Under the pieces are notes generated by a model. It searched no databases, was not told the DNA's origin, and saw nothing but the letters and a program-made list of their open reading frames with translations. From a virus (lineage: Duplodnaviria; Heunggongvirae; Uroviricota; Caudoviricetes), in IMG/VR virus record IMGVR_UViG_2802429231_000003: a stretch of 8,242 nucleotides of DNA. The stretch is one strand, 5' to 3'. This document shows, in pieces, positions 1-8,242 of the stretch; position 1 is the stretch's first letter, and every line of letters starts with the position of its first letter. The translations under genes and the position numbers were made by a program.

Positions 1-250
1 TGTTGGGTGGAGCGGACAATCCAAATGGTGAATTACTGTCTTATATCATTGGCGCTGACAGCGCAAAAACCTTAACAAAACTTAACATCCGGTGCGTACC
101 TTTTTGCGCAACCTGACTGCTGGTGGATGACTGGTTTTGACTATCTCCAGAAACAACCAGGGCCGGATAAACCAGCCCTGACTACTGTATAAAAACTGTA
201 TGCCCGTTGTTTGCATGGGGTAGTTTTCGCAAATACCCCCTTATGCCGTT

Positions 251-292
251 TTCAGCACGGGAGCGTCATACAGTCCAGGGTTCAGCACGGGA
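251..292. repeat. Two exact direct copies of TTCAGCACGGGA (251-262 and 281-292), 30 bp apart, in non-coding DNA left of the iteron array
   Basis: Read directly from the sequence; spacing of about three helical turns suggests a protein-binding site pair; function unknown. Confidence 0.5.
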
Positions 293-525
293 AGATGCGG
301 CGCTTCTTGATGCCGCCCGACGGTCTGGCAGCGGGCGCGAACGCTGTTTTGCACGAAATAGCTTTTCCGTGCGCTCCATTGAACATCCCTTCTTTTCGCT
401 GATTTTAGCTTCCTGTTGTTCTGGTTGTTTGCCGGATGCCTGATTTTACCAGATACCCGCCAGGCGAGCTTTCCGGCTTTCAAACCTGAAATTCAGGAAA
501 AATCATCTCTATATATACAAAAAGG

Positions 526-814
526 TGTTGTCCCTGTTGTCCCGGTTGTCCCAAAAAATGTAACCAACTGATTTTATTGAATCTTATTTTTAATTGTGGG
601 ACAACATGCCAGCATTGTGGGACAACATGCCCTGTTTCTGTGTTGTCCCGGATTGTTGGCTGATGAATGTTGTCCCAAAACTTCCTGACGTTGTCCCAAA
701 ATCGCCGCATGTTGTCCCAGAAACACGCTATGTTGTCCCATAATTATCTGATGATATGTATAAATAACAGTAAGTTAGTTAAAAAACGTCTTCATTGGGA
801 CAACCGGGACAACA
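526..814. repeat. Iteron array, putative replication origin: 12 copies of TGTTGTCCC/GGGACAACA flanking A+T-rich spacers
   Basis: Direct copies at 526-534, 535-543, 545-552, 641-649, 668-676, 690-697, 710-718, 731-739 (about 21 bp periodicity in the central block); inverted copies at 598-606, 619-627, 797-804, 806-814; A+T-rich stretches at 553-596 and 740-790; lies immediately 3' of the replication-protein gene, as in SaPI/PICI and P4 origins. Confidence 0.75.
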
Positions 815-834
815 TCTTTACGCGCACGTATGAA

Positions 835-2976
835 TTATTCGGCTTCTTCTTCCTCCTGTTCAGGTGCGAAAAGCAGGATATATGCACGCTGCCGGGCGTT
901 ATTCTGATGTTTCAGGCGCGGTGTTCTGCCCTGCCAGCCCCTGCCGCTGGTGGGTTTCTTAAGCATTCCCGCATCATGCAGTACCTGCGCCACTGCGTCC
1001 TTGTTAAAGCCTCTGGCAACGTGTTCTTTAAACGGTGCCGGAAGCACGTAAAACAACATCGGGTCATCATACCGTTCGCCCTTGTCCCGGTAGCCCATCA
1101 GTTCACCGATGTGGAGATCTCGCGGATCATAATCCACGGGTGCAAATTTGCTCATGCCCCAGGCGTTAAGAAATGCCACTGCCTGTTCTGCAATCTGCTG
1201 GTGTTCTTTGTTCCCGGTGCCGAACTCTTTCACCCAGGCATTAAAGCTGCGCTGTACCGCATCCCGGCACCCTTGCGCATCCCATCCGGTGATATGGCCT
1301 GACAGCACCAGCGCCGCTTCCATGATGGCGAATCGCTCCCCGACGCGGTGGACCTGCTCGCCGTAGTTGTCCGGGATAAGCCCGCGCCAGCGTTCCCTTG
1401 CGGCTTCTGTGGCCTCCCGCGCCGCCTGCTGGTGGTCTGCCAGCCAGCGCACCCATTCACGCCCTGCGGTGCCATGATGCGCCATACAGGCCGCTCTGAG
1501 CGCATCAGCATGAGCTTTACCGGACGGCAGCCCGTGAAATTCCGTGGCCTTCTCCAGGGGCACATTAAGCAGGCGCACCAGTTGCCCCGCTTTGGGCTTC
1601 ATGCCTGCGGCTGCAAGAAAGGTTTCTATGTCCATTTCTCCGGTACTGATGGCGACAGTTCGCCAGCGTTTAAGCTCCCGGTTACCGCCTTCCTTCGCGC
1701 CCTGTAGTTTCCCCACACCGTTAAACAGCGTATAGGCAGACGTTGCCACGGCGCGGGCGTCACTGCCCTGACCAACCTCATCCAGGGGCATCAGGCCGTC
1801 ATTGTGCGCCTGTGCCTCGTTAGCGATACCCAGCGCAGTACCGTACCAGGTGAGGCGCAGTAAATCCGGGTTACCGTACAGACTGCTGGCGATGTTTGCT
1901 GTGGTGGTTTTCCCGGCGCTGGACTGCTGGAAGAAATGGACGCCGAAGCCATCCGCACCCACCAGCCCGACCAGCGGCGCGGCAAGTGCTGCCGCCACGC
2001 CCAGCATCATGGAAGGATTACCCGCCACCAGCGTGGCGACGTTCTCCCGCCAGCTCTGCGCCGTACCTGCACAGGTGTAACCGGAAGCCGTCGCGCTGTG
2101 ACCGTAAAACAGGACCTTCCGGCCCGCCTCGCCGATGATTTCCCCGTCCGGCATGATGTACGCGCCGTGCTGCCATCCGGTCAGGCTGGTGATGTGCCAG
2201 AGTTCCCCCGCGCCACTGCGCAACAGGTGATCGGCAAGGATGGCGCGAAAGTTGTTTTTAGCCGTGACAGAAAGCCCACCAGCACGTAACCGCGACCAGC
2301 CTTCATGCTCGCCAGTATCACGCATGGGGATCGCTTCGGTGTGCGCTGTACGCGCGCCTGCGGGCTTCCAGCGCAGAACAATATACCGCTCGGACTCATC
2401 CGCACCGATGCCCACCACCTCAAGAGGATCACACAACCACTGACCGGGGCGGGTAACTTCCCCGGTCTGCTTATCCATCTTTGGCGTTACCCAGTACAGA
2501 CCGTCAGGGCGGGCATCCACACAGGGGGCCAGCTCATCCACCGGCGCAGGTTTGCCCTCTGCCCGTTGTACCTCTGCCACCAGACTTTCTTCCCCGCGTT
2601 CGTGCTGTTCGCGTATCCGGTTCAGGTAGTCGCGCCAGTCTTCCGGGTGCTGGTCAGGTATCCCCTGGTATAACTTCGCTTCCTGTACGCCCGCCAGCGC
2701 CAGCTTTTCAGCAATGGCGTTAATCTGAATGGGCTTAATATCTCCGGCATGATAGAGGCGGGCGCACTTACGCCCGTTATCAATAATGCGCAGGTTCGCC
2801 AGGTCTGCCAGTTGCTTTGGCCCCAGCCAGACAGGCGGCGTTTTATCTGCGGCAACTTTTAATCCCCAGTCCTCTTCCCATGTTTTAGCGTGAGCGAAGG
2901 CATCAGCCCCGGCAAAGATAACCACCTCAACATGTTTATCTTTCGGTTGATGCTTAAGGTTCGGTGCGTTCTTCAT
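835..2976 (-). CDS. Replication initiator, primase/helicase-like P-loop NTPase (713 aa); DUF927-type replication protein as found in P4-like/PICI elements
   Basis: Long intact ORF; Walker A-like motif QQSSAGKTT; RBS GGGAGG about 9 nt upstream of ATG; start overlaps upstream gene stop (ATGA); iterons directly downstream; acidic C-terminal tail. Family assignment is from recalled sequence character, not a search. Confidence 0.8.
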   Translation of the reverse strand: MKNAPNLKHQPKDKHVEVVIFAGADAFAHAKTWEEDWGLKVAADKTPPVWLGPKQLADLANLRIIDNGRKCARLYHAGDIKPIQINAIAEKLALAGVQEAKLYQGIPDQHPEDWRDYLNRIREQHERGEESLVAEVQRAEGKPAPVDELAPCVDARPDGLYWVTPKMDKQTGEVTRPGQWLCDPLEVVGIGADESERYIVLRWKPAGARTAHTEAIPMRDTGEHEGWSRLRAGGLSVTAKNNFRAILADHLLRSGAGELWHITSLTGWQHGAYIMPDGEIIGEAGRKVLFYGHSATASGYTCAGTAQSWRENVATLVAGNPSMMLGVAAALAAPLVGLVGADGFGVHFFQQSSAGKTTTANIASSLYGNPDLLRLTWYGTALGIANEAQAHNDGLMPLDEVGQGSDARAVATSAYTLFNGVGKLQGAKEGGNRELKRWRTVAISTGEMDIETFLAAAGMKPKAGQLVRLLNVPLEKATEFHGLPSGKAHADALRAACMAHHGTAGREWVRWLADHQQAAREATEAARERWRGLIPDNYGEQVHRVGERFAIMEAALVLSGHITGWDAQGCRDAVQRSFNAWVKEFGTGNKEHQQIAEQAVAFLNAWGMSKFAPVDYDPRDLHIGELMGYRDKGERYDDPMLFYVLPAPFKEHVARGFNKDAVAQVLHDAGMLKKPTSGRGWQGRTPRLKHQNNARQRAYILLFAPEQEEEEAE

Positions 2977-3215
2977 TCCACCGCCTCCCTGCGGGTGGCA
3001 GCCAGTGCCACGGCATCGCGGGTAAACTCCCGGTGAAAGCGATCCACCGGATATACGCAGGGGTGAGAGTAGCCATCACGGACATATGTCACGCGGTTGA
3101 ACTGATTCGCGGTAATCACTACCGCACACCCGGATTTATCGCGCCATTTATCACCGGGGCGAATTTCGGGTAAAGCCTGCCCGCTGGCAGGAACGCCAGT
3201 TATTTTCTTGGACAT
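2973..3215 (-). CDS. Hypothetical small protein (80 aa), translationally coupled to the replication gene
   Basis: ORF with AAGG RBS about 11 nt upstream; stop overlaps primase start (ATGA); no recognisable domain. Confidence 0.6.
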   Translation of the reverse strand: MSKKITGVPASGQALPEIRPGDKWRDKSGCAVVITANQFNRVTYVRDGYSHPCVYPVDRFHREFTRDAVALAATRREAVE

Positions 3216-3227
3216 TATTTTTTCGCC

Positions 3228-3425
3228 TTATGCTGCTGGTGGTGTAACGGTAAATCCGGCTATTTTTGCCGCTTCCAGAAAACCTTCCAGGTTACTGACA
3301 AACTCGTTTTTCTGTAGCGTATAGCCGCCTGTGGCTGTGCCTTTTTCCACGTTAACCAGGACAGGTCCGGTGAAGTCCGGTCGCGCCGGAATGGTAACTG
3401 TGAAGGTCAGGGAGTGATTATGCAT
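3228..3425 (-). CDS. Hypothetical small protein (65 aa)
   Basis: ATG at 3423-3425 preceded by GGAGG; ATG overlaps the upstream gene stop (ATGCATAA). The longer track ORF to 3491 would need a non-ATG start and overlap the upstream gene by about 70 nt. Confidence 0.6.
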   Translation of the reverse strand: MHNHSLTFTVTIPARPDFTGPVLVNVEKGTATGGYTLQKNEFVSNLEGFLEAAKIAGFTVTPPAA

Positions 3426-3960
3426 GGTCTGCCTCCACATACGCGACACCCGCCACATCAAGCGCCTGTTTAAAACGGCAAAGCATTTCACGGCGTTCGC
3501 GGTACAGGGCCAGCACGAAGGGATCGAGTGTGGCTTCGATATCGGCAGGATAGCGACGGACGAAAGGCAGAAGGACGACGCCCTGACAGCGGTGTGGCGT
3601 GGAGGATTTCACCTGGTCAGCCAGCATATTCACCAGGTCATGTAACAGCCCGGTAAGCGGCTGGATCATGTCACGGGGCAATGTATCGGCCACCAGCGCC
3701 TTTGCCAGCGTGAGGCAGTATTCCAGCGTCAGGCTTTCATCAGGCCAGTACTCTGACAGATCGGATGCGGTATTGTCCGGCAGGGGAAGCGCCGTATCCG
3801 CATGGTATGCCGCTGTCAGTGCCTCCAGTGAGGTGACAAGGGATTTGCACATCGCCCGGTGTTCAGTGCGGCTGTGGTATTCCATCAGCCTGCACACCAG
3901 CGCGGCGCACTCACCTGCCAGATGAAACAGGTCAGCGCCTGCGGGGATCGGCTTATTCAT
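3418..3960 (-). CDS. Hypothetical protein (180 aa), member of the replication operon
   Basis: C-terminal 180 codons of the 619-aa track ORF; ATG at 3958-3960 preceded by a G-rich RBS and overlapping the upstream gene stop (ATGAATAA); the remaining 5' part of the track ORF is low-complexity antisense of the plus-strand genes. Confidence 0.65.
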   Translation of the reverse strand: MNKPIPAGADLFHLAGECAALVCRLMEYHSRTEHRAMCKSLVTSLEALTAAYHADTALPLPDNTASDLSEYWPDESLTLEYCLTLAKALVADTLPRDMIQPLTGLLHDLVNMLADQVKSSTPHRCQGVVLLPFVRRYPADIEATLDPFVLALYRERREMLCRFKQALDVAGVAYVEADHA

Positions 3961-4150
3961 GATGCGCCCCCGTAGCGGGCAGACGTCCAGCGAAGAAGCA
4001 GACACTTTCCCGCGCAAGCTGGCGGCGGGCTTCATGCTCGCTATCTGCGGCGATATGGTGGATTTTTGCGGTGATAGTCGGGCAATCGCGGCGAACGGCA
4101 GCGATAAGCCAGATGAATCGCGGGTGTGACGGGGTAAGGGTAGCGACCAT
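3953..4150 (-). CDS. Hypothetical small protein (65 aa), first gene of the replication operon
   Basis: ATG at 4148-4150 with GAGG about 9 nt upstream; stop overlaps next gene start; position analogous to kil-like first genes of the P4 left operon (analogy only). Confidence 0.55.
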   Translation of the reverse strand: MVATLTPSHPRFIWLIAAVRRDCPTITAKIHHIAADSEHEARRQLARESVCFFAGRLPATGAHHE

Positions 4151-4314
4151 AGCGGTGGCCTCGTGAGTAGGTTTATTAACCTCACCAGACCGCTGCTAAA
4201 CGGGGTGGTGAGACGTAACAGGGTTAGCAGACCGGCACTCACGAAACCGGCAGGCGCGAACGCCTCCCCGTTACGCCCCACCATAATACGGACGCAACAT
4301 GGCATTTTACGGAC

Positions 4315-4346
4315 AAAAAAAGACCGCGTTACAGAATGGTCGCGGT
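4315..4346 (-). terminator. Putative intrinsic terminator in the leader of the replication operon (minus strand)
   Basis: Minus-strand RNA ACCGCG-(12 nt loop)-CGCGGU followed by C and seven U (top-strand A run 4315-4321); lies between the divergent promoter region and the first operon gene. Confidence 0.45.
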
Positions 4347-4404
4347 TGTCCGCGCGAGTATTCAGGCTGCTAAACCCGGCCAGTGGATTTACACCAGCGG
4401 GAAA

Positions 4405-4434
4405 AGCATAGCGCCGGGCGGCAGTGTCAGGCAA
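4405..4434 (-). promoter_or_regulatory. Candidate sigma70-type promoter for the leader/replication operon
   Basis: On minus strand TTGCCT (top 4434-4429), 18-nt spacer, TATGCT (top 4410-4405); each hexamer is only a 4/6 match. Confidence 0.2.
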
Positions 4435-4445
4435 GGGATTTTTTT

Positions 4446-4480
4446 GTGATGTAATCACTTTCATCAGTACGTTACTGATG
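4446..4480. promoter_or_regulatory. Two adjacent operator-like dyads upstream of the plus-strand two-gene module
   Basis: GTGAT-gta-ATCAC (4446-4458) and CATCAGTA-cgt-TACTGATG (4462-4480), the latter with perfect 8-bp arms; just upstream of TATGAT (4482-4487) and the RBS AAGGAGAGG. Confidence 0.35.
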
Positions 4481-4512
4481 TTATGATTTACATCAACAAG
4501 GAGAGGCAAATT

Positions 4513-4794
4513 ATGTCTGCTGTTGAGTTGATGAACCGACGGATTCAGATTGCGGATAATGCTTTCGCCATCATCCGCATCTTGCAGGTTGACCCGTCCA
4601 TTCTCGGTAGCCAGCATCTGTATAAATACAGTCTGGCCTATATTGTGGATGGCGTCTGCGTGATGCGCTACGACAACGAACGGGGAAATGGCGACCACAA
4701 ACACATTGGCGATCGTGAATTTCCGGTCACGTTCACCAGCATACAAGACCTGATAGCCAGCTTTCAGGAAGATATCAACCATCTGAGGAGATGA
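4513..4794 (+). CDS. Small protein (93 aa), possible toxin-like partner of a two-gene module (tentatively TumE/DUF6516-like)
   Basis: ATG at 4513 preceded by AAGGAGAGG; motif RYDNERGNGDHKH; followed 4 nt later by an HTH gene with its own RBS. Family assignment is from memory of the motif and unverified. Confidence 0.65.
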   Translation: MSAVELMNRRIQIADNAFAIIRILQVDPSILGSQHLYKYSLAYIVDGVCVMRYDNERGNGDHKHIGDREFPVTFTSIQDLIASFQEDINHLRR

Positions 4795-4798
4795 CATT

Positions 4799-5158
4799 AT
4801 GAGAGTGTTAACCGTCAGGATTATGTCTATCGCCGATGCTTTCCAGACAACGATGGAAGATGCCACTCGCGCTATGTCAGGCGTGGTTGTTGGATCTGAT
4901 TTGATATTCCCCAGCGTTGAGCAGCTTGCCAAAACGATGCTTGCGCCCAATCGCTGGCAAATTATCAGAGTGATGAAAGGTGCAAAACCCGTTTCTATTC
5001 GTGAGCTGGCCCGTCTGGTAAATCGCGATTTTCGCGGTGTATACAACGATGTACAGGCACTGTTGAACGGCGGCGTTCTGGATCGGGATGGCGATAAAAT
5101 CGTATTACCGTATGACCGCGTACACATTGAGTTTAATTCGGACGACGCCGCAGCGTAA
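4799..5158 (+). CDS. Winged helix-turn-helix DNA-binding protein (119 aa), putative regulator/antitoxin-like partner
   Basis: GGAG RBS 9 nt upstream; HTH-like segment PVSIRELARLVNRDFRGVYNDVQALL followed by a wing-like segment; strong terminator downstream. Confidence 0.7.
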   Translation: MRVLTVRIMSIADAFQTTMEDATRAMSGVVVGSDLIFPSVEQLAKTMLAPNRWQIIRVMKGAKPVSIRELARLVNRDFRGVYNDVQALLNGGVLDRDGDKIVLPYDRVHIEFNSDDAAA

Positions 5159-5177
5159 CGGTACGAGGCGTTTATCG

Positions 5178-5209
5178 GGGCGTGGATATCCTCTGCGCCC
5201 TTTTTCTTT
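5178..5209 (+). terminator. Intrinsic terminator after the plus-strand two-gene module
   Basis: 9-bp stem 5178-5186/5192-5200 (two G-U wobbles), 5-nt loop, then TTTTTCTTT. Confidence 0.65.
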
Positions 5210-5273
5210 GTCCGTATGTCAACTTTTGACAGGTTGAGGCCAGACACGGGCAAGCTCTTATTCTGAATGCTTA

Positions 5274-6098
5274 TCATTGAACTACCTCCAGGCGACGGGC
5301 TAACCAGCGCTGAGACAGGCGCAGTAATTCTGTCTTGCGCTGGTGGTAGTCCTGCCTCAGTTCTATTAGCGTGATATTGGTCTGCTCAAGATAAGAAAGG
5401 TGATCGAGTTGTTCCTCGCTCATATGGTCGCGGGCTTCGCCGGTGATGCCGTTCGCCTGCGCCCACTGTTTCGCTGTCATTCCACCCAGCACGATCCGCG
5501 CCAGCATGTTCGATTCAGTTGTGTAGTGATGTGGTTGTGTGGCCTTGCCCTGTTCCTGCCTCACCACTTCCAGCGCGGCGCACATCGGCTTAAAGTAACT
5601 GGCGGCGGTGATACGGGCCTTAAGTTCTTTGCGCAGCGCAGCGGCTTTTAACGGGGCTTCCTGCTGTAATGTTTCCTCGCAGTGAATGAAGTAACGACGA
5701 ACGGCGCGGCCCTGCTCGTTGCGTTCGACCATCGCCAGCTCTTTAGCCATATTCAGCGAAAGCAAATACTCCCGGCTTCGTCTGTCCCCACCGCGTCTTG
5801 TTTCCCACGCCTTTCCATCATGGTTATTATTTGAGCTTTGATTCCTGAAATTTGAGGAATCAAAAAGGGTGTAGTCACTGTCAGCAATGAAACCATATTC
5901 CTCAATGCGGCCCTTAATCCATGTGGAAAAGTCATTTCCCACACCCAGCGCGGCATGTAACTCCTTTGCACTTACCACGCTGGCAGGCTGGCTACCGATA
6001 ATGCCGGAAATAACCGGGATGAGTTCGGCAAAATTATTCTGGTTATGGTTTTCAGGGTGAGCGATGCCCTGACCGTGAAGGCCATTAATTAATTTCAT
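5274..6098 (-). CDS. Phage antirepressor, AntA/AntB N-terminal domain family (274 aa)
   Basis: Segment YLLSLNMAKELAMVERNEQGRAVRRYFIHCEETL matches the conserved core of AntA/AntB antirepressors as recalled; AGGA RBS; 14 nt downstream of the preceding gene on the same strand. Confidence 0.75.
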   Translation of the reverse strand: MKLINGLHGQGIAHPENHNQNNFAELIPVISGIIGSQPASVVSAKELHAALGVGNDFSTWIKGRIEEYGFIADSDYTLFDSSNFRNQSSNNNHDGKAWETRRGGDRRSREYLLSLNMAKELAMVERNEQGRAVRRYFIHCEETLQQEAPLKAAALRKELKARITAASYFKPMCAALEVVRQEQGKATQPHHYTTESNMLARIVLGGMTAKQWAQANGITGEARDHMSEEQLDHLSYLEQTNITLIELRQDYHQRKTELLRLSQRWLARRLEVVQ

Positions 6099-6112
6099 TA
6101 TTTCAGTTCCTG

Positions 6113-6544
6113 TCAGGCGGCGTTCTGGTTATCCGGGTACATCATGAGGATGCTTTCGATAGTCTCCGGGGTAAGGCTCCAGTAGCCACCAGTACTGGCA
6201 CACTGATTGACCAGCTTAATGACCTTCATCACGTCCTCACGGCAGGCAAAGCGGTAGCGAAGATGTGCCCCTATACCATCGGCATTGGCTTCTTCTGAAC
6301 GCGCCAGGCAGATATCAAGGCGGCGCTCCAGTTCACTGGCGTAATTGCGGCCTGATGAAAGATGGCAGTGGCGCAGAATATCGTTTTCAGTCCAGCCACC
6401 AGCACCAGTGCAAAGCATATAAACGCGGGCGCGGTGCTTCTTCGGTGTGCGTCTCGCTTGTGTGCGGCTGGTGGTGGGGATAACATCAGACGGGCGAATA
6501 TCTGTGTTAGCCGCCTGCTGTTCGGGGCGGTTTTCTTTTTTCAT
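6113..6544 (-). CDS. Hypothetical protein (143 aa), co-transcribed with the AlpA-family gene
   Basis: ATG overlaps the AlpA gene stop (ATGA); basic N-terminal region; no recognisable domain. Confidence 0.6.
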   Translation of the reverse strand: MKKENRPEQQAANTDIRPSDVIPTTSRTQARRTPKKHRARVYMLCTGAGGWTENDILRHCHLSSGRNYASELERRLDICLARSEEANADGIGAHLRYRFACREDVMKVIKLVNQCASTGGYWSLTPETIESILMMYPDNQNAA

Positions 6545-6753
6545 TGCGCCACCTCGCCGCGTGATTCAAATACACGATCATTTATCCATTTATTAACTTC
6601 GTCTTCAAACCAACCAACACGGCGTAGGCCAATGCGAAATCCTCGCGGAAATTCGCCAGCGTTAATCATCTCCTGAAATGCGCTATCTGATTTAATACGT
6701 AAAATCATTTTTACTTCTTTTTTGAGAAGGATCTTTCTTTCTTCTGATGTCAT
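6541..6753 (-). CDS. alpA: AlpA/Vis-family phage transcriptional regulator (excisionase-like HTH), 70 aa from ATG
   Basis: Pattern ILLKKEVKMILRIKSDSAFQEMINAGEFPRGFRIGLRRVGWFEDEVNKWI resembles the AlpA-family HTH; the track ORF extends to 6771 only with a TTG start, so the first ATG (6751-6753) is preferred. Confidence 0.7.
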   Translation of the reverse strand: MTSEERKILLKKEVKMILRIKSDSAFQEMINAGEFPRGFRIGLRRVGWFEDEVNKWINDRVFESRGEVAQ

Positions 6754-6816
6754 TTGGTTAATCTCATTCAATACCGATTAATTCCGGCGGTGTAGGAATA
6801 CTGGCATGATGAGATA

Positions 6817-6886
6817 GGGTGAGGGCAACACTATTTGGGGTGAGGGTAGGTTACCGTGAGGGGCCGGGGTGGTTACCCTCACGGTA
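6817..6886. promoter_or_regulatory. G+C-rich repeat cluster and perfect 11-bp inverted repeat between the orphan gene and alpA
   Basis: GGTGAGGG at 6818-6825 and 6839-6846, CCGTGAGGGG at 6854-6863; inverted repeat TACCGTGAGGG (6852-6862) / CCCTCACGGTA (6876-6886) with 13-nt loop; no U tract follows on either strand. Confidence 0.4.
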
Positions 6887-6890
6887 GATG

Positions 6891-7619
6891 TTAAGCCACT
6901 TTTGATGGGGTGCGATCGATTGGGCAAGCGATTTTTTCGATAGCTTTGGCTGTCGATTCAACAAATCCGTAACTGGTTTTAAGCTCTGTAATTATGGCCT
7001 GCTGGTTAACTCTGGTGCCATTATTGTTAGGGTCATACTCTGCCCATTCACAATTCCTTATCCTGATAGCCTGATACAGAGGGTCTCTTTCTACGCCTCC
7101 GATAAACTTACCCAAGTGAAGAGGATACGATTTTTTTAAAACCTCAATATCTCTTTCTAGTGCGGTAATTTTATTCTTAAGTTCGGATATCTCTTGTGAC
7201 TCTTGATTTGTACGCGATGGCGGCTGTAATCCCACCTCGTAGGGGTGGTTAATTATAATGGCATTATATTCTGTGAACTCATTTTCAACCCAAGTCCAGA
7301 TGTCCTTTGCCAGAAAGTTAGCATCTACTATATGTGTGTTGATATTAATATTATCATTTTCAACTAAGCTTAGGATATCAATTGGGAGATCCCATGAAGG
7401 GTCAGAATATGTGTAAGCTTTCAGTGGGATAACTTCTTTCAATTTAATAGCTTGACATATAATTTCTTTAAATGATGAAGCTTCTTCATCGCTAATGTAG
7501 CCACTGATAATATTTGGATCAAGAGTATCGTACTCACCGGATAAGCCTGCCATAACTAAAGCTGCTTGCTCTAAAGTCACAATTCTGAGTCGTTTAATAT
7601 GGAAAGGTAAATCAATCAT
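6891..7619 (-). CDS. Hypothetical protein (242 aa) in a markedly A+T-rich gene; candidate accessory/cargo gene
   Basis: Intact ORF with GAGG RBS about 8 nt upstream; composition visibly much more A+T-rich than flanking genes; predicted coiled-coil-like segment (ESQEISELKNKITALERDIEVLKK); no recognisable domain. Confidence 0.7.
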   Translation of the reverse strand: MIDLPFHIKRLRIVTLEQAALVMAGLSGEYDTLDPNIISGYISDEEASSFKEIICQAIKLKEVIPLKAYTYSDPSWDLPIDILSLVENDNININTHIVDANFLAKDIWTWVENEFTEYNAIIINHPYEVGLQPPSRTNQESQEISELKNKITALERDIEVLKKSYPLHLGKFIGGVERDPLYQAIRIRNCEWAEYDPNNNGTRVNQQAIITELKTSYGFVESTAKAIEKIACPIDRTPSKVA

Positions 7620-7919
7620 TACGCCACCTCACGCCCTCTATCATGGAGGCCGCGCCAACCCGCAGAGGTGTACGGGAATTCGGGAGCTACCCTAGACGCG
7701 GCTTATTCTGTTACCGTCGGTTATCTTCGGTTTTGCCCATGATAGATCGTTTTCTGAACGCTTGCATTGCAAGACTGTGTGAATAATCAGCTTGTGTTTT
7801 TATACAGCTCTAATTCCTCTCATTCCTGTTGCTAGGGTCACTCCCGTGGATGCGGTTTCCACAAATTCCCCCCACCAGCGCATCAACACAATACGCTTTT
7901 CAAGATAGTTACTCCGGTT

Positions 7920-8242
7920 ATCAATTTGCGCGTAAGACCTCGCCCAATCGGGCGGGGATATAAGCGCGGTAACTGCGTAACATTTTTTGACCTTCGTCAA
8001 TATGGCTTACATTTTTCAGTGTATTTTGTAAGCCTATGAAACGCGCCTATAAATACAGATTCTATCCAACACCCGATCAGGTTGAGCTTTTGGCTCAAAC
8101 GTTCGGGTGTGTGCGTTTTGTCTATAACTCGATCCTGCGTTGGCGCACCGATGCGTACTACGAACGGCAGGAGAAGATCGGCTATACACAAGCCAGCGCT
8201 CGCTTAACAGCACTGAAAAAAGAGCCAGATTTTGCCTGGCTC
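7920..8242 (+). mobile_element. Left end of an IS200/IS605-family insertion sequence (tnpB-only type or tnpA lost), truncated by the window edge
   Basis: TnpB N-terminus begins at 8036; subterminal hairpin CGCCC-AATC-GGGCG at 7941-7954 (extendable to 7938-7957) about 80 bp upstream, consistent with an IS605-family left-end structure; left boundary approximate. Confidence 0.5.
8036..8242 (+). CDS. tnpB: IS200/IS605-family transposase accessory protein TnpB (OrfB), N-terminal 69 codons, partial
   Basis: Translation MKRAYKYRFYPTPDQVELLAQTFGCVRFVYNSILRW matches the conserved TnpB/OrfB N-terminus; in-frame stop at 7988-7990 upstream; ORF runs to the last base, so it is absent from the complete-ORF track. 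Confidence 0.8.
   Translation, partial: MKRAYKYRFYPTPDQVELLAQTFGCVRFVYNSILRWRTDAYYERQEKIGYTQASARLTALKKEPDFAWL

What the first reader, a model, noticed from the sequence alone, without database searches (positions are those of the whole stretch)
1..8242. Window is the regulatory/replication arm of a P4-like or PICI-like satellite element
The gene order on the minus strand (AlpA/Vis-like regulator, AntA-type antirepressor, leader with terminator, small ORFs, large primase/helicase-like gene, iteron origin) parallels the left operon of satellite phage P4 (vis, epsilon, kil and small ORFs, alpha, cis replication region) and the alpA / pri-rep / ori layout of Gram-negative PICIs. Integrase and helper-capsid hijacking genes are not in the window.
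Basis: partly seen in the sequence, partly recalled or inferred. Interest (0 to 1): 0.5.

Follow-up and report, generated by a model that had tools for sequence, protein, structure and literature searches.

The report
IS-broken PICI-type phage satellite island
The window holds almost all of a small chromosomal island of the phage-satellite (PICI) kind, with a P4-style RNA immunity switch and its own replication origin, but this copy has been crippled by two insertion sequences and is a new member of a known family rather than something new.

Summary
On the minus strand lie an integrase 3' remnant, int-alpA RNA motif, a rare 242-aa gene, AlpA, a conserved 143-aa gene, AntA, a leader with terminator, a C4/CI antisense RNA, an Icd/Kil-like gene, three small ORFs, a 713-aa DUF927 helicase and 12 iterons. 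The proteins are 41-68% identical to those of EcCIMP1, an experimentally mobilised E. coli PICI. The leader, CI RNA and icd/eta block is homologous to the P4 immunity region, with element-specific complementary boxes. The element is not P4-like in the strict sense: P4 alpha, epsilon, sid, delta and psu have no match in the window, and sid, delta, psu and epsilon none in relatives. The large protein matches SaPI Rep and Cch helicases, and no primase domain was detected. Near-identical intact islands (94-99%) sit between tRNA-Pro (proL) and narP. They are only 8.5 kb and have no late or packaging genes, so the window is nearly the whole element, not one arm. More distant relatives of the Rep gene mostly sit in PICI/cfPICI-type elements with capsid, portal and TerS genes. 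This copy is damaged: a tnpB element splits the integrase catalytic Tyr codon, and an IS21-like element cuts the tail. Satellite behaviour is inferred, not shown.

The parts
1..60 (.). Terminal 60 nt of an IS21-like (ISEc62-family) element, ending in CTGACA. The IS body lies left of the window and interrupts the island tail.
   Evidence: Matches thousands of E. coli records at 95-99% in varied contexts. It lies next to istA/istB in strain AST85. Alignment A5 places the junction at 60|61.
61..525 (-). Island tail downstream of the origin, apparently non-coding. It is 97% identical to intact relatives apart from two 35-36 nt indels.
   Evidence: The only ORF called here in L029 (53 aa) is broken by the indel. 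No Pfam or Rfam hit.
526..814 (.). Replication origin with 12 copies of GTTGTCCC. There is a triplet at 9-nt spacing (527-552), direct and inverted repeats at 21-nt spacing (598-739) and an inverted doublet (797-813). These flank AT-rich tracts at 553-597 (82% AT) and 740-796 (79% AT).
   Evidence: The same architecture with different iteron sequences lies just 3' of the Rep gene in L001, L002, L024 and EcCIMP1. This matches the PICI ori layout in PMC6092414.
835..2976 (-). Rep: a 713-aa DUF927 initiator-helicase with Walker A (SSAGKTT) and Walker B (LDEVG) motifs. No primase/TOPRIM domain was detected.
   Evidence: PF06048 at 7.6e-48 and phrog_1139. PDB 8tch 'Pathogenicity island protein' at 3.6e-14 and 5dgk Cch helicase. 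60% identical to EcCIMP1 TOPRIM+DUF927 over residues 107-705 only. The N-terminal 160 aa have no Pfam hit.
2973..3215 (-). DUF4222 small protein (80 aa), with a 4-nt overlap onto Rep.
   Evidence: PF13973 at 1.3e-21. Found before Rep in most relatives.
3228..3491 (-). Small ORF of the phrog_340 family. The likely start is the ATG at 3425 (65 aa), as called in L029.
3418..3960 (-). 180-aa ORF of unknown function, overlapping its neighbours by 8 nt. It is the tail of a 619-codon ORF (656 codons stop-free).
   Evidence: Coding signature of 9 synonymous to 7 non-synonymous differences, against 2:14 and 3:12 in the off frames. No family hit. Absent from the more distant relatives.
3953..4150 (-). 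Icd-like protein (65 aa), homologous to the C-terminal part of P4 eta/kil.
   Evidence: NF033153 at 1.1e-20. 46% identical to the P4 cI/eta ORF, 6e-11. 68% identical to the EcCIMP1 Icd-like protein.
4161..4200 (-). Downstream target boxes of the C4 RNA: UUUAGCAG (4193-4200) and ACUCACGA (4161-4168). The second overlaps the Shine-Dalgarno sequence of icd (ATG at 4150).
4201..4288 (-). C4/CI-type antisense (immunity) RNA.
   Evidence: Rfam RF01695 at 79.3 bits (gathering score 45), E 9e-15. The same model hits the P4 CI RNA and EcCIMP1.
4315..4434 (-). PLE-like promoter (-35 TTGCCT 4429-4434, -10 TATGCT 4405-4410). The leader carries the upstream boxes UUUAGCAG (4367-4374) and ACUCGCG (4353-4359). 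An intrinsic terminator follows, with stem arms 4341-4346 and 4323-4328 and a U-run at 4315-4321.
   Evidence: isrK-like 41.6 bits and c4-a1b1 40.4 bits, both below their gathering scores. The promoter hexamers and the hairpin are conserved with P4, EcCIMP1, L016 and L023. Boxes.
4483..5158 (+). TumE toxin (4483/4513-4794) and HVO_A0114/TumA-type antitoxin (4799-5158), with a terminator at 5177-5201. The pair is inverted relative to the operon.
   Evidence: PF20126 and PF25212; terminator. The same cassette sits in the same place in Salmonella L030 and Apirhabdus L023. The TA family is validated in PMC10584680.
5274..6098 (-). AntA/Bro-network antirepressor-family protein (274 aa).
   Evidence: PF08346 at 9e-24 and phrog_5817. 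60% identical to EcCIMP1 AntA.
6113..6544 (-). Conserved 143-aa protein of unknown function, overlapping alpA by 4 nt.
6541..6771 (-). AlpA/Vis-family regulator-excisionase. The likely start is the ATG at 6753 (70 aa).
   Evidence: PF05930. P4 Vis 37.5% identical, 1.5e-7. Called as 70 aa in L029.
6891..7619 (-). 242-aa cargo gene of unknown function in a stretch of about 38-45% GC, lying between the int-alpA RNA and alpA.
7635..7702 (-). int-alpA RNA motif.
   Evidence: Rfam RF02996 at 43.1 bits (gathering score 35.8). Found at the same place in L001, L016, L029 and L030.
7800..7912 (-). 3' remnant (36 codons plus stop) of a P4-family tyrosine integrase. The gene is broken inside the catalytic Tyr codon (RAY|NRS).
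   Evidence: Identical to the end of the 413-aa int of L029 (alignment A4).
7913..8242 (+). Left end and start (ATG at 8036) of a tnpB-only IS200/IS605-family element, inserted 3' of TTAT (7909-7912).
   Evidence: 100% identical to an InsQ/TnpB element in E. coli 1916D6. Junction.

Best explanation
The window is most of a small tRNA-Pro(proL)-type integrative island of the Gram-negative PICI family, related to EcCIMP1. It holds the integration, regulatory/immunity and replication zones. Proposed working, with the basis for each step. (1) A P4-family integrase plus AlpA integrate and excise the element. This rests on homology and on EcCIMP1 and EcCICFT073 genetics. (2) In the resting state a PLE-like promoter makes a leader that ends at an intrinsic terminator, and also makes the C4/CI RNA. 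The hairpin-2 loop and the 3' single-stranded segment of that RNA pair with boxes in the leader. They also pair with boxes over the icd ribosome-binding site. This keeps the tightly coupled icd, 180-aa, 65-aa, DUF4222 and rep operon off. The sequence shows the boxes and their element-specific complementarity; repression is inferred from P4 and P1. (3) A helper phage induces alpA, and the alpA, 143-aa and AntA transcript then overrides the block. AntA may act on a helper repressor, as P4 epsilon and P1 Ant do. This step is inferred. (4) The DUF927 Rep binds the 12 GTTGTCCC iterons, melts the AT-rich tracts and loads itself as the helicase. Priming would be left to the host, because no primase domain is present. 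The first part rests on homology to SaPI Rep and Cch, and the priming part is inference. (5) Packaging is unexplained. The closest intact islands have no packaging genes, so a PICMI-like route or a pac/cos site in the tail is assumed. (6) This copy is probably immobile. A tnpB element splits the integrase catalytic Tyr codon and an IS21-like element cuts the tail, while the regulatory and replication genes remain intact.
For: Domains are. Synteny and 41-68% protein identity to the experimentally mobilised PICI EcCIMP1 are (PMC11773190). The four-zone PICI plan, with Rfam C4/isrK hits in Bro zones, is described in PMC10111431. The C4 RNA scores 79 bits, and the same arrangement occurs in P4 and EcCIMP1. 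The promoter and terminator are conserved, and the boxes co-vary across seven elements. Cognate complementarity is 7-9 nt for the downstream boxes and both 3'-segment boxes, against 6 nt or less for nearly all non-cognate pairs; the upstream loop box is weaker (4-5 nt in the window and EcCIMP1). Iterons number 9 against 0.07 expected, and the layout is conserved 3' of Rep in relatives, matching the PICI ori description. Rep matches PDB 8tch and 5dgk. Intact 8.5-kb islands lie between proL and narP, and an empty site is seen in E. coli O104:H4. In 55 of 95 loci that encode a relative of this Rep, capsid, portal, TerS or protease genes lie downstream, as in PICI and cfPICI. The relevant flanks are chromosomal, and no plasmid or phage record matches.
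Against: No helper phage, excision, replication or packaging was or could be shown. Under SatelliteFinder rules the element has only 3 of 5 PICI core components, the 'Type C' class that its authors do not annotate with confidence. The closest intact relatives lack any late gene, so they could be decayed or could use another lifestyle. The upstream loop box in the window is imperfect (ACUCGCG against ACUCACG). The isrK-like and c4-a1b1 hits fall below their gathering scores. The inverted TA cassette lies between AntA and the leader, which complicates read-through from alpA. The integrase is broken.
Confidence: 0.72

Rival explanations
1. It is a P4-like satellite in the strict sense. The window would be the P4 left operon equivalent, and sid, delta and psu would lie outside the window.
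For: Vis/AlpA (1.5e-7) and the eta/kil ORF (6e-11) match P4. The CI RNA and isrK-like leader are arranged as in P4. Relatives carry integrases 38-46% identical to P4 Int.
Against: P4 alpha, epsilon, sid, delta and psu have no match in the window. Sid, delta, psu and epsilon have none in 23 genome relatives. Intact near-identical islands end 1.6 kb after the origin with no further genes. The replicase is a DUF927 helicase, not the D5-type helicase of alpha.
Confidence: 0.04
2. It is a decayed remnant of a larger PICI, cfPICI or prophage that lost its late genes. It would now be only a domesticated or dead island held in place by its toxin-antitoxin pair.
For: The integrase is split and the tail is cut by IS elements. 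There are no late genes, whereas 55 of 95 loci with a related Rep have them. A Salmonella island at the same site keeps only the alpA, TA, C4 and icd part next to unrelated genes. The TumE/TumA cassette could stabilise a remnant.
Against: The IS-free 8.5-kb form recurs in at least 24 contigs with intact int. It has paired arm-type motifs at both ends, a tRNA-derived attR and a clean empty site. Rep, icd and the 180-aa ORF show an excess of synonymous change. The C4 boxes remain matched. PICMI shows that satellites this small can be functional.
Confidence: 0.17
3. It is an integrative, plasmid-like replicon or mobilisable island that does not depend on phages. It would be a Rep plus iteron replicon with an integrase and an addiction module.
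For: It has a Rep and iteron origin, a TA cassette and no packaging genes in the closest relatives. Small circular 'plasmid' records from Klebsiella and Raoultella share alpA, the 143-aa gene and AntA-like DNA.
Against: No relaxase, oriT or partition genes were found. AlpA and the C4-icd immunity block are phage and satellite hallmarks. The homologous EcCIMP1 is transduced specifically by phage Kapi1. Rep relatives are mostly linked to capsid, portal and TerS genes.
Confidence: 0.05
4. It is a piece of a P1/P7-type prophage immI region (c4, icd, ant).
For: The C4 RNA, the Icd-like gene and an Ant-family gene occur together.
Against: The order differs, because AntA lies upstream of the leader in the alpA unit rather than downstream of icd. 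There is no phage match by DNA. Relatives are islands of 8.5-20 kb bounded by att sites, without tail or lysis genes.
Confidence: 0.02

Closest known systems
EcCIMP1, an E. coli MP1 phage-inducible chromosomal island with helper phage Kapi1 (PMC11773190)
   Same: It has the same order: tRNA, int, AlpA, a 143-aa protein, AntA, the C4 RNA with Icd-like gene, small ORFs with DUF4222, a DUF927 Rep and an iteron origin. Protein identities are 41-68%. It also lacks recognisable capsid-morphogenesis and terS genes and is 'Type C' under SatelliteFinder.
   Different: The EcCIMP1 Rep carries an N-terminal P4-alpha-like TOPRIM primase (918 aa), which the window protein lacks. EcCIMP1 integrates at tRNA-Thr, and it has about 9 kb of late-zone genes (P22-like ejection proteins, PerC). 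Its iteron and C4 specificity boxes differ. It has no TA cassette and no 242-aa gene.
Satellite phage P4, left operon and immunity region
   Same: The Vis/AlpA regulator, the PLE-type promoter, the leader terminator, the CI (Rfam C4) RNA with seqA/seqC-type boxes and the eta/kil ORF are homologous. The integrase is of the P4 family. An iteron region lies downstream of the replicase.
   Different: There is no alpha, epsilon, sid, delta or psu. The replicase is a DUF927 (SaPI Rep/Cch-like) helicase. AntA takes the place where an anti-repressor function might be expected.
Gram-negative PICIs such as EcCICFT073, and cfPICIs (PMC6092414, PMC10085698, PMC10111431)
   Same: They share unidirectional int, alpA and rep genes, and an ori made of iteron sets flanking AT-rich DNA just 3' of rep. 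They have a Bro-network zone with immunity RNAs. Relatives of this Rep are followed by capsid, portal, TerS and protease genes in 55 of 95 loci.
   Different: The closest intact islands have no capsid-morphogenesis, terS or rpp genes at all. Homology to EcCICFT073 itself was not tested.
PICMI, the minimalist satellites of Vibrionaceae (PMC10803314)
   Same: They are small, with int, alpA and a replication protein as the core. They have large non-coding stretches and no capsid-remodelling genes.
   Different: PICMIs integrate next to fis in vibrios, and their replication protein is annotated as a primase. No C4/CI immunity is reported in the passages read. Sequence relatedness was not tested.
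SaPI Rep and SCCmec Cch replicative helicases (PDB 8tch, 5dgk)
   Same: The DUF927 core of the 713-aa protein aligns with them (3.6e-14 and 1.3e-3), including the P-loop region.
   Different: Identity is low. The hosts are Gram-positive, and the N- and C-terminal regions are unrelated.

Membership tests
P4-like satellite (seven SatelliteFinder core components, PMC10085698) | P4-family integrase | tested here: met
   A 36-codon 3' remnant is in the window, identical to the end of the 413-aa int of L029. Relatives carry integrases 38-46% identical to P4 Int. The gene is disrupted in this copy.
P4-like satellite (seven SatelliteFinder core components, PMC10085698) | AlpA/Vis regulator | tested here: met
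   PF05930. P4 Vis 37.5% identical, E 1.5e-7.
P4-like satellite (seven SatelliteFinder core components, PMC10085698) | alpha primase-helicase | tested here: not met
   tblastn of P4 alpha against the window gives nothing better than E 6.9. The large protein is a DUF927 helicase. P4-alpha-like primase N-termini occur in 12 relatives but not here.
P4-like satellite (seven SatelliteFinder core components, PMC10085698) | epsilon (helper derepression protein) | tested here: not met
   No significant match (best E 0.019, in the wrong place and strand). None in relatives.
P4-like satellite (seven SatelliteFinder core components, PMC10085698) | sid, delta and psu capsid-size and transactivation operon | tested here: not met
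   No match in the window or in 23 genome relatives. The intact 8.5-kb islands have no room for them.
Gram-negative PICI (PMC6092414; five SatelliteFinder core components) | int at one end, alpA downstream, genes transcribed in one direction | tested here: met
   The only plus-strand genes are the TA cassette.
Gram-negative PICI (PMC6092414; five SatelliteFinder core components) | primase-replicase gene followed by an ori of iteron sets flanking AT-rich DNA | tested here: met
   The Rep helicase and the ori are present, but no primase domain was detected.
Gram-negative PICI (PMC6092414; five SatelliteFinder core components) | capsid-morphogenesis gene and/or terS/rpp packaging gene | tested here: not met
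   Absent from the window and from near-identical intact islands. Present downstream of related Rep genes in 55 of 95 more distant loci. The closest genome relative, L002, has only a weak TerS-like HTH (3.9e-6).
Gram-negative PICI (PMC6092414; five SatelliteFinder core components) | homology to an experimentally mobilised PICI | tested here: met
   Six proteins are 41-68% identical to EcCIMP1, in the same order.
Gram-negative PICI (PMC6092414; five SatelliteFinder core components) | helper-phage-dependent induction, replication and high-frequency packaging | not testable with these tools
   This needs experiments. Many Rep relatives sit in IMG/VR predicted viral regions of 7-20 kb, which is only suggestive.
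Gram-negative PICI (PMC6092414; five SatelliteFinder core components) | dedicated att site not used by prophages | tested here: inconclusive
   Intact relatives sit at tRNA-Pro(GGG) between yejM and narP, and an empty site exists. One genome (L034) has prophage-like genes just upstream. Prophage use of the site was not surveyed.
cfPICI (capsid-forming PICI) | own capsid, portal, protease, terS/terL, HNH and head-tail connector genes | tested here: not met
   None in the window or in the closest intact islands. The HK97 capsid with portal set is found in 45 of 95 more distant loci that share the Rep family.
PICMI (PMC10803314) | minimal int, alpA and replication-protein core with no capsid-remodelling genes | tested here: met
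   Gene content of the 8.5-kb intact islands.
PICMI (PMC10803314) | integration next to fis in Vibrionaceae, with concatemer packaging by virulent phages | tested here: not met
   The site is tRNA-Pro in Escherichia and Salmonella. Packaging mode is not testable.
P4/P1-type antisense-RNA immunity (Rfam C4, c4-a1b1, isrK) | C4/CI RNA with complementary target boxes upstream and downstream, the latter over the icd/eta ribosome-binding site | tested here: met
   C4 scores 79.3 bits. The window boxes are 7 and 8 nt, and cognate-specific complementarity holds across 7 elements including P4. The upstream loop box is imperfect, and the leader models score below their gathering scores.
P1 immI operon | gene order c4, icd, ant in one transcription unit | tested here: not met
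   AntA (5274-6098) lies upstream of the leader and C4, separated from them by an inverted TA cassette.

The most novel reading that the evidence does not exclude
The proL island may be a working enterobacterial 'minimalist' satellite of 8.5-10 kb. It would have no packaging or capsid genes, a P4-type CI-RNA immunity switch whose specificity cassette is swapped between otherwise 94-99% identical islands, and a SaPI-Rep-like helicase that has lost the primase domain. It may also need an eta-like read-through ORF. In the window that frame (619 codons from the ATG that overlaps the AntA stop codon) stays open through the antisense strand of an inverted TumE/TumA cassette. Only 0.2% of synonymous recodings of the two toxin-antitoxin genes keep that frame open.
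Probability: 0.2. Interest if true: 0.55.

Novelty: new member of a known kind. Interest (0 to 1): 0.35.

Why it matters
The window adds a well-resolved example to the Gram-negative PICI family and links it by real homology to the P4 immunity switch. Near-identical islands carry different CI-RNA specificity boxes. The same int, alpA, rep and ori module occurs without any late genes, or is joined to PICI or cfPICI late modules. This supports a modular view of satellite evolution. It also points to a tractable 8.5-kb island in Escherichia for asking how little a satellite needs in order to be mobilised. For annotation, it shows that 'DNA primase' labels on DUF927 proteins, and 'Ash' or long ORF calls across the CI RNA, should be read with care.

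Tried and rejected
- An exact look-up of the Rep protein found no record.
- Megablast of the window gave no near-full match: against 5,426 complete E. coli genomes the best hits covered about 10% at about 77% identity, apart from the IS ends, and plasmids and phages gave nothing useful either. The source organism therefore stays unknown.
- P4 alpha, epsilon, sid, delta and psu were searched against the window and the relatives, and found nothing.
- A Pfam scan of the Rep N-terminal 160 aa at E up to 10 found no TOPRIM or primase domain.
- PADLOC gave no defence-system assignment for the 242-aa, 143-aa or 180-aa proteins.
- The RNAduplex energy matrix for C4 against its targets was too noisy to use. 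It was replaced by exact-complement box counts.
- The 1.6-kb tail of the intact island had no blastn match in phage genomes, so no cos or pac homology was found.
- The 619-codon ORF was first dismissed as an artefact. It was then re-examined in the light of P4 eta. It has no Pfam Phage_ASH hit in the window, and the open frame is not conserved in Apirhabdus L023. It is therefore reported only as an unexplained observation.


Full report
**1. What is in the window**

ORF listing and domain scans give a coherent minus-strand gene train. Reading from high to low coordinates it contains:
- an integrase 3' remnant (7800-7912)
- the Rfam int-alpA RNA motif (7635-7702, 43.1 bits against a gathering score of 35.8)
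- a 242-aa gene with no family hit, in a stretch of about 38-45% GC (6891-7619)
- AlpA (6541-6753/6771, PF05930)
- a 143-aa gene that overlaps alpA by 4 nt (6113-6544)
- AntA (5274-6098, PF08346)
- a promoter, leader and terminator (4315-4434)
- a C4 antisense RNA (4201-4288, 79.3 bits against a gathering score of 45, E 9e-15)
- an Icd-like gene (3953-4150, NF033153)
- a 180-aa ORF (3418-3960)
- a 65/87-aa ORF of phrog_340 (3228-3425/3491)
- DUF4222 (2973-3215)
- a 713-aa DUF927 protein (835-2976)
- an iteron array (526-814)

On the plus strand, between AntA and the leader, lies a TumE toxin and HVO_A0114 antitoxin pair (4483-5158) with its own terminator (5177-5201). TumE-TumA is an experimentally validated toxin-antitoxin family (PMC10584680).

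The genes from icd to rep overlap by 4-8 nt, or are separated by 12 nt, which fits one operon.

**2. Is it more than chance?**

TGTTGTCCC occurs 9 times, all within 526-814, against 0.07 expected. The 8-mer GTTGTCCC occurs 12 times in 527-813, around two tracts of 82% and 79% AT.

I compared the window with a 94%-identical relative (L029). The called frames carry an excess of synonymous differences:
- DUF927: 37 synonymous to 24 non-synonymous, against 8:51 and 9:52 in the other frames
- the 180-aa ORF: 9:7, against 2:14 and 3:12
- Icd: 15:11, against 5:19 and 1:23

One correction is needed: a piece of the integrase gene is present in the window.

**3. The window edges are insertion sequences**

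Bases 1-60 match thousands of E. coli records at 95-99% in unrelated contexts. They lie at the istA-proximal end of an IS21-like (ISEc62-family) element. Alignment puts the junction at 60|61, after the terminal CTGACA.

Bases 7918-8242 are 100% identical to a tnpB-only IS200/IS605-family element in E. coli 1916D6. Alignment with an intact integrase shows that the element starts at 7913, just 3' of TTAT. It splits the catalytic tyrosine codon of int (RAY|NRS). This copy is therefore very probably unable to excise on its own.

**4. Intact relatives, and what they say about 'arm' versus 'whole'**

The 242-aa protein is rare, with only 12 clusters among 5.8 billion proteins. Its 99%-identical homologue lies on a metagenome scaffold (L029). 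That scaffold carries an intact 413-aa integrase, the 242-aa gene, alpA, the 143-aa gene, the isrK-like leader and C4, icd, the small ORFs, DUF4222 and a 713-aa DUF927 protein.

Window 61-4151 is 94.2% identical to this scaffold, and 6053-7921 is 99.1% identical. The same island, 94-97% identical to the window, is found in at least 24 contigs whose source names include E. coli and Escherichia sp.. In four of the five loci shown it lies between yejM-tRNA-Pro(GGG) and narP; L034 has prophage-like genes upstream instead.
- attL is the 3' end of the tRNA.
- attR is a 13-nt copy of it with one mismatch.
- Paired TTTGGGACTA motifs lie inside both ends.
- E. coli O104:H4 genomes show the empty site, where the tRNA is followed directly by the sequence found to the right of attR.

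The island is thus a discrete insertion of 8.5 kb. After the origin it has only about 1.6 kb with no credible gene. That tail has no blastn match in phage genomes.

The window differs from these islands in one block, 4152-6052. There AntA, the TA cassette and a different leader/C4 allele replace 393 nt. Part of that block (3955-5246) is 92% identical to a Salmonella island at the same tRNA.

The window therefore holds nearly the whole element, not one arm of a larger one.

**5. Relationship to known satellites**

*EcCIMP1.* This E. coli island is excised, packaged and transduced by phage Kapi1 in an alpA- and int-dependent way. It lacks recognisable capsid-morphogenesis and terS genes (PMC11773190). 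It has the same gene order as the window. Identities to the window proteins are 60% for Rep residues 107-705, 68% for Icd, 60% for AntA, 62.5% for the 143-aa protein, 41% for AlpA and 43% for DUF4222.

[quoted passage not shown] Rfam C4 and isrK hits in PICI Bro zones are already described (PMC10111431). The ori layout of iteron sets around AT-rich DNA, just 3' of rep, matches that described for E. coli PICIs (PMC6092414).

*Iterons in relatives.* Relatives show the same layout of 9-nt triplets and 21-nt spaced repeats, but with other iteron sequences. L002 has TGGGAYAAGT, L024 has GGGATAAC, L001 has CGGGATAYG and EcCIMP1 has TTGAACCAAC.

*Late genes in the wider family.* A survey covered 95 loci that encode a relative of this Rep (23 from genomes, 80 from IMG/VR). 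The commonest downstream genes are:
- an HK97-type capsid (45 loci)
- a portal (45 loci)
- TerS (39 loci)
- a prohead protease (28 loci)
- SSB (26 loci)
- an HNH endonuclease (24 loci)
- ProQ/FinO (16 loci)
- a second capsid type (10 loci)

In all, 55 loci have head or packaging genes and 40 have none of these. The Rep family is thus typical of PICI and cfPICI elements, and the window's own lineage is a gene-poor variant.

**6. Relationship to P4**

A tblastn search of all P4 proteins against the window finds only two matches. Vis matches AlpA (37.5% identity, 1.5e-7). The cI/eta ORF matches Icd (46% identity, 6e-11). Alpha, epsilon, sid, delta and psu find nothing. Sid, delta, psu and epsilon also find nothing in the relatives.

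Rfam places C4 on the P4 CI RNA and isrK on its leader, and the same pair occurs in EcCIMP1, L016 and L029. In the window the isrK-like and c4-a1b1 hits are below their gathering scores (41.6 bits against 50, and 40.4 bits against 46.7).

An alignment of five elements shows a conserved CTTGCC -35 element, a TAT..T -10 element and the leader terminator.

The two single-stranded parts of the RNA are complementary to boxes in the same element:
- In the window the hairpin-2 loop UCGUGAGU pairs with ACUCACGA (4161-4168), which overlaps the icd Shine-Dalgarno sequence.
- The 3' segment CUGCUAA pairs with UUAGCAG at 4193-4200 and again at 4367-4374.
- Across seven elements, including P4, the downstream boxes and both 3'-segment boxes give 7-9 nt of cognate complementarity. 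Nearly all non-cognate pairs give 6 nt or less, apart from elements that share a box.
- The upstream loop box is weaker: 7-8 nt in five elements, but only 4-5 nt in the window and EcCIMP1.
- The window and its 92%-identical Salmonella relative differ exactly in these boxes, and the changes are compensatory.

This is the P4 and P1 immunity design. The window is a homologue of that module, but it is not a P4-like satellite by the seven-component definition (PMC10085698).

**7. The large protein**

It is a DUF927 protein. It aligns with PDB 8tch ('Pathogenicity island protein', 3.6e-14), with the SCCmec Cch helicase 5dgk, and weakly with NCBIfam Cch1.

The EcCIMP1 homologue is a 918-aa TOPRIM+DUF927 protein. 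Its N-terminus is homologous to the P4 alpha primase (2e-40), as in 12 relatives. The window protein shares only residues 107-705 with it.

The first 160 residues of the window protein hit no Pfam family, even at E of 10. 'Primase/helicase-like' should therefore be read as initiator-helicase. Priming by the host is an inference.

**8. How it most likely works**

The steps and their basis are set out under the best explanation. The sequence shows the parts and their complementarity. Homology supports the Int and AlpA functions, CI-type repression, and Rep-iteron initiation. Three things are inferred: helper induction through alpA, an anti-repressor role for AntA, and the packaging route.

The closest precedents for a satellite without packaging genes are EcCIMP1 and the PICMI family. 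PICMIs carry int, alpA and a replication protein as their core, have no capsid-remodelling genes, and are packaged as concatemers (PMC10803314).

**9. Rivals**

- A strict P4-like satellite is excluded by the missing core genes.
- A P1-type immI fragment is excluded by gene order and context.
- A phage-independent integrative replicon cannot be fully excluded, but no transfer genes were found and the family context argues against it.
- A dead remnant is the most serious rival for this copy, because int is broken and the tail is cut. For the lineage, however, the intact 8.5-kb form recurs with clean att sites and shows coding constraint.

**10. An unexplained observation**

A stop-free frame of 656 codons runs on the minus strand from 5385 to 3418. 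Its ATG at 5277 overlaps the AntA stop codon (ATGA). The frame passes through the antisense strand of both TA genes, then the leader and C4, and ends as the 180-aa ORF.

Synonymous resampling of the two TA genes leaves this antisense frame open in only 0.22% of trials, with a mean of 4.8 stops. The other two frames have 9 and 14 stops.

In P4, the eta ORF spans the CI region, and its translation from the late transcript is reported to prevent termination (PMC10111431). Comparable long ORFs span the leader and CI region in P4, EcCIMP1, L016, L029/L035 and Salmonella L030.

The evidence is weak. L030 is not independent of the window, because it is 92% identical. The frame is closed in Apirhabdus L023. 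The window ORF has no Phage_ASH hit.

**11. Verdict**

The element is PICI-like and shares a homologous immunity and regulatory module with P4. It is not a P4-like satellite. The 'primase' is a helicase-initiator. The window is almost the entire island, which is poor in genes and broken by IS elements. It is a new member of a known kind, of modest interest.

Noticed in passing
window 1-60: The window starts inside the terminal 60 nt of an IS21-like (ISEc62-family) element. That element is present in up to 15 copies per genome in thousands of E. coli records, mostly on plasmids. It cuts the island tail about 0.7 kb before the expected attR.
   Followed up: yes
window 7913-8242: A tnpB-only IS200/IS605-family element is inserted 3' of TTAT, exactly inside the catalytic Tyr codon of the integrase. 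It is 100% identical to a copy that sits between Q and the holin gene in a lambdoid prophage of E. coli 1916D6.
   Followed up: yes
window 3418-5385, minus strand: A 656-codon stop-free frame runs antisense through the whole TumE/TumA cassette and through the leader and C4 RNA. Its ATG at 5277 overlaps the AntA stop codon. Only 0.22% of synonymous recodings of the TA genes keep it open. It may be an eta-like read-through ORF, or it may be chance.
   Followed up: partly
window 4152-6052; L029 3249-3641; L030 12219-13510: Islands that are otherwise 94-99% identical carry different Bro/immunity cassettes with different C4 specificity boxes. The window has CUGCUAA and UCGUGAGU, while L029 has AUUUCCAC and CCAUUGAG. 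This suggests exchange of hetero-immune modules.
   Followed up: partly
[not shown]
   Followed up: partly
window 835-1160 and 2660-2976 (Rep termini); L028 18539-21295: Two forms of the Rep protein exist among relatives. One is about 918 aa with a P4-alpha-like TOPRIM primase N-terminus (12 loci). The other is about 713 aa with an unrelated 106-aa N-terminus and no detectable primase domain (the window and at least 8 genome loci).
   Followed up: partly
L035 7418-7473 and 15728-15749 (outside the window): Doubled TTTGGGACTA motifs lie about 120-170 nt inside attL and about 75-86 nt inside attR. They resemble the doubled arm-type motif reported around the attP of helper-embedded PICIs.
   Followed up: no
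L029 7950-8320 / L035 tail (outside the window): The non-coding tail of the intact island carries further repeat sets, including TCCGTCCAAA three times plus an inverted copy, and GTTTCCAC four times. Their role is unknown; they might be binding sites or a packaging signal.
   Followed up: no
plasmid records CP031371.2, CP031370.2, NZ_CP146545.1 (L118): Small circular 'non-mobilizable plasmid' records of 17-22 kb from Klebsiella and Raoultella share DNA resembling alpA, the 143-aa gene and AntA. They might be excised satellites that were assembled as plasmids.
   Followed up: no
L034 1-6900: In one genome, prophage-like genes (a CI-type peptidase S24 repressor and a second integrase) lie directly upstream of the island in place of yejM. 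This suggests tandem occupation of the proL site.
   Followed up: no
window about 210 and about 400: The window lacks two segments of 35-36 nt that are present in the intact relatives' tail. One of them breaks the only ORF called there in L029.
   Followed up: partly
L030 14351-18637: In Salmonella enterica the proL island keeps int-alpA RNA, the 242-aa homologue, alpA, Bro-N, TumE/TumA, C4 and icd. It then continues into an LRR-NEL effector gene and phage tail-fibre genes, with no Rep gene or origin.
   Followed up: no
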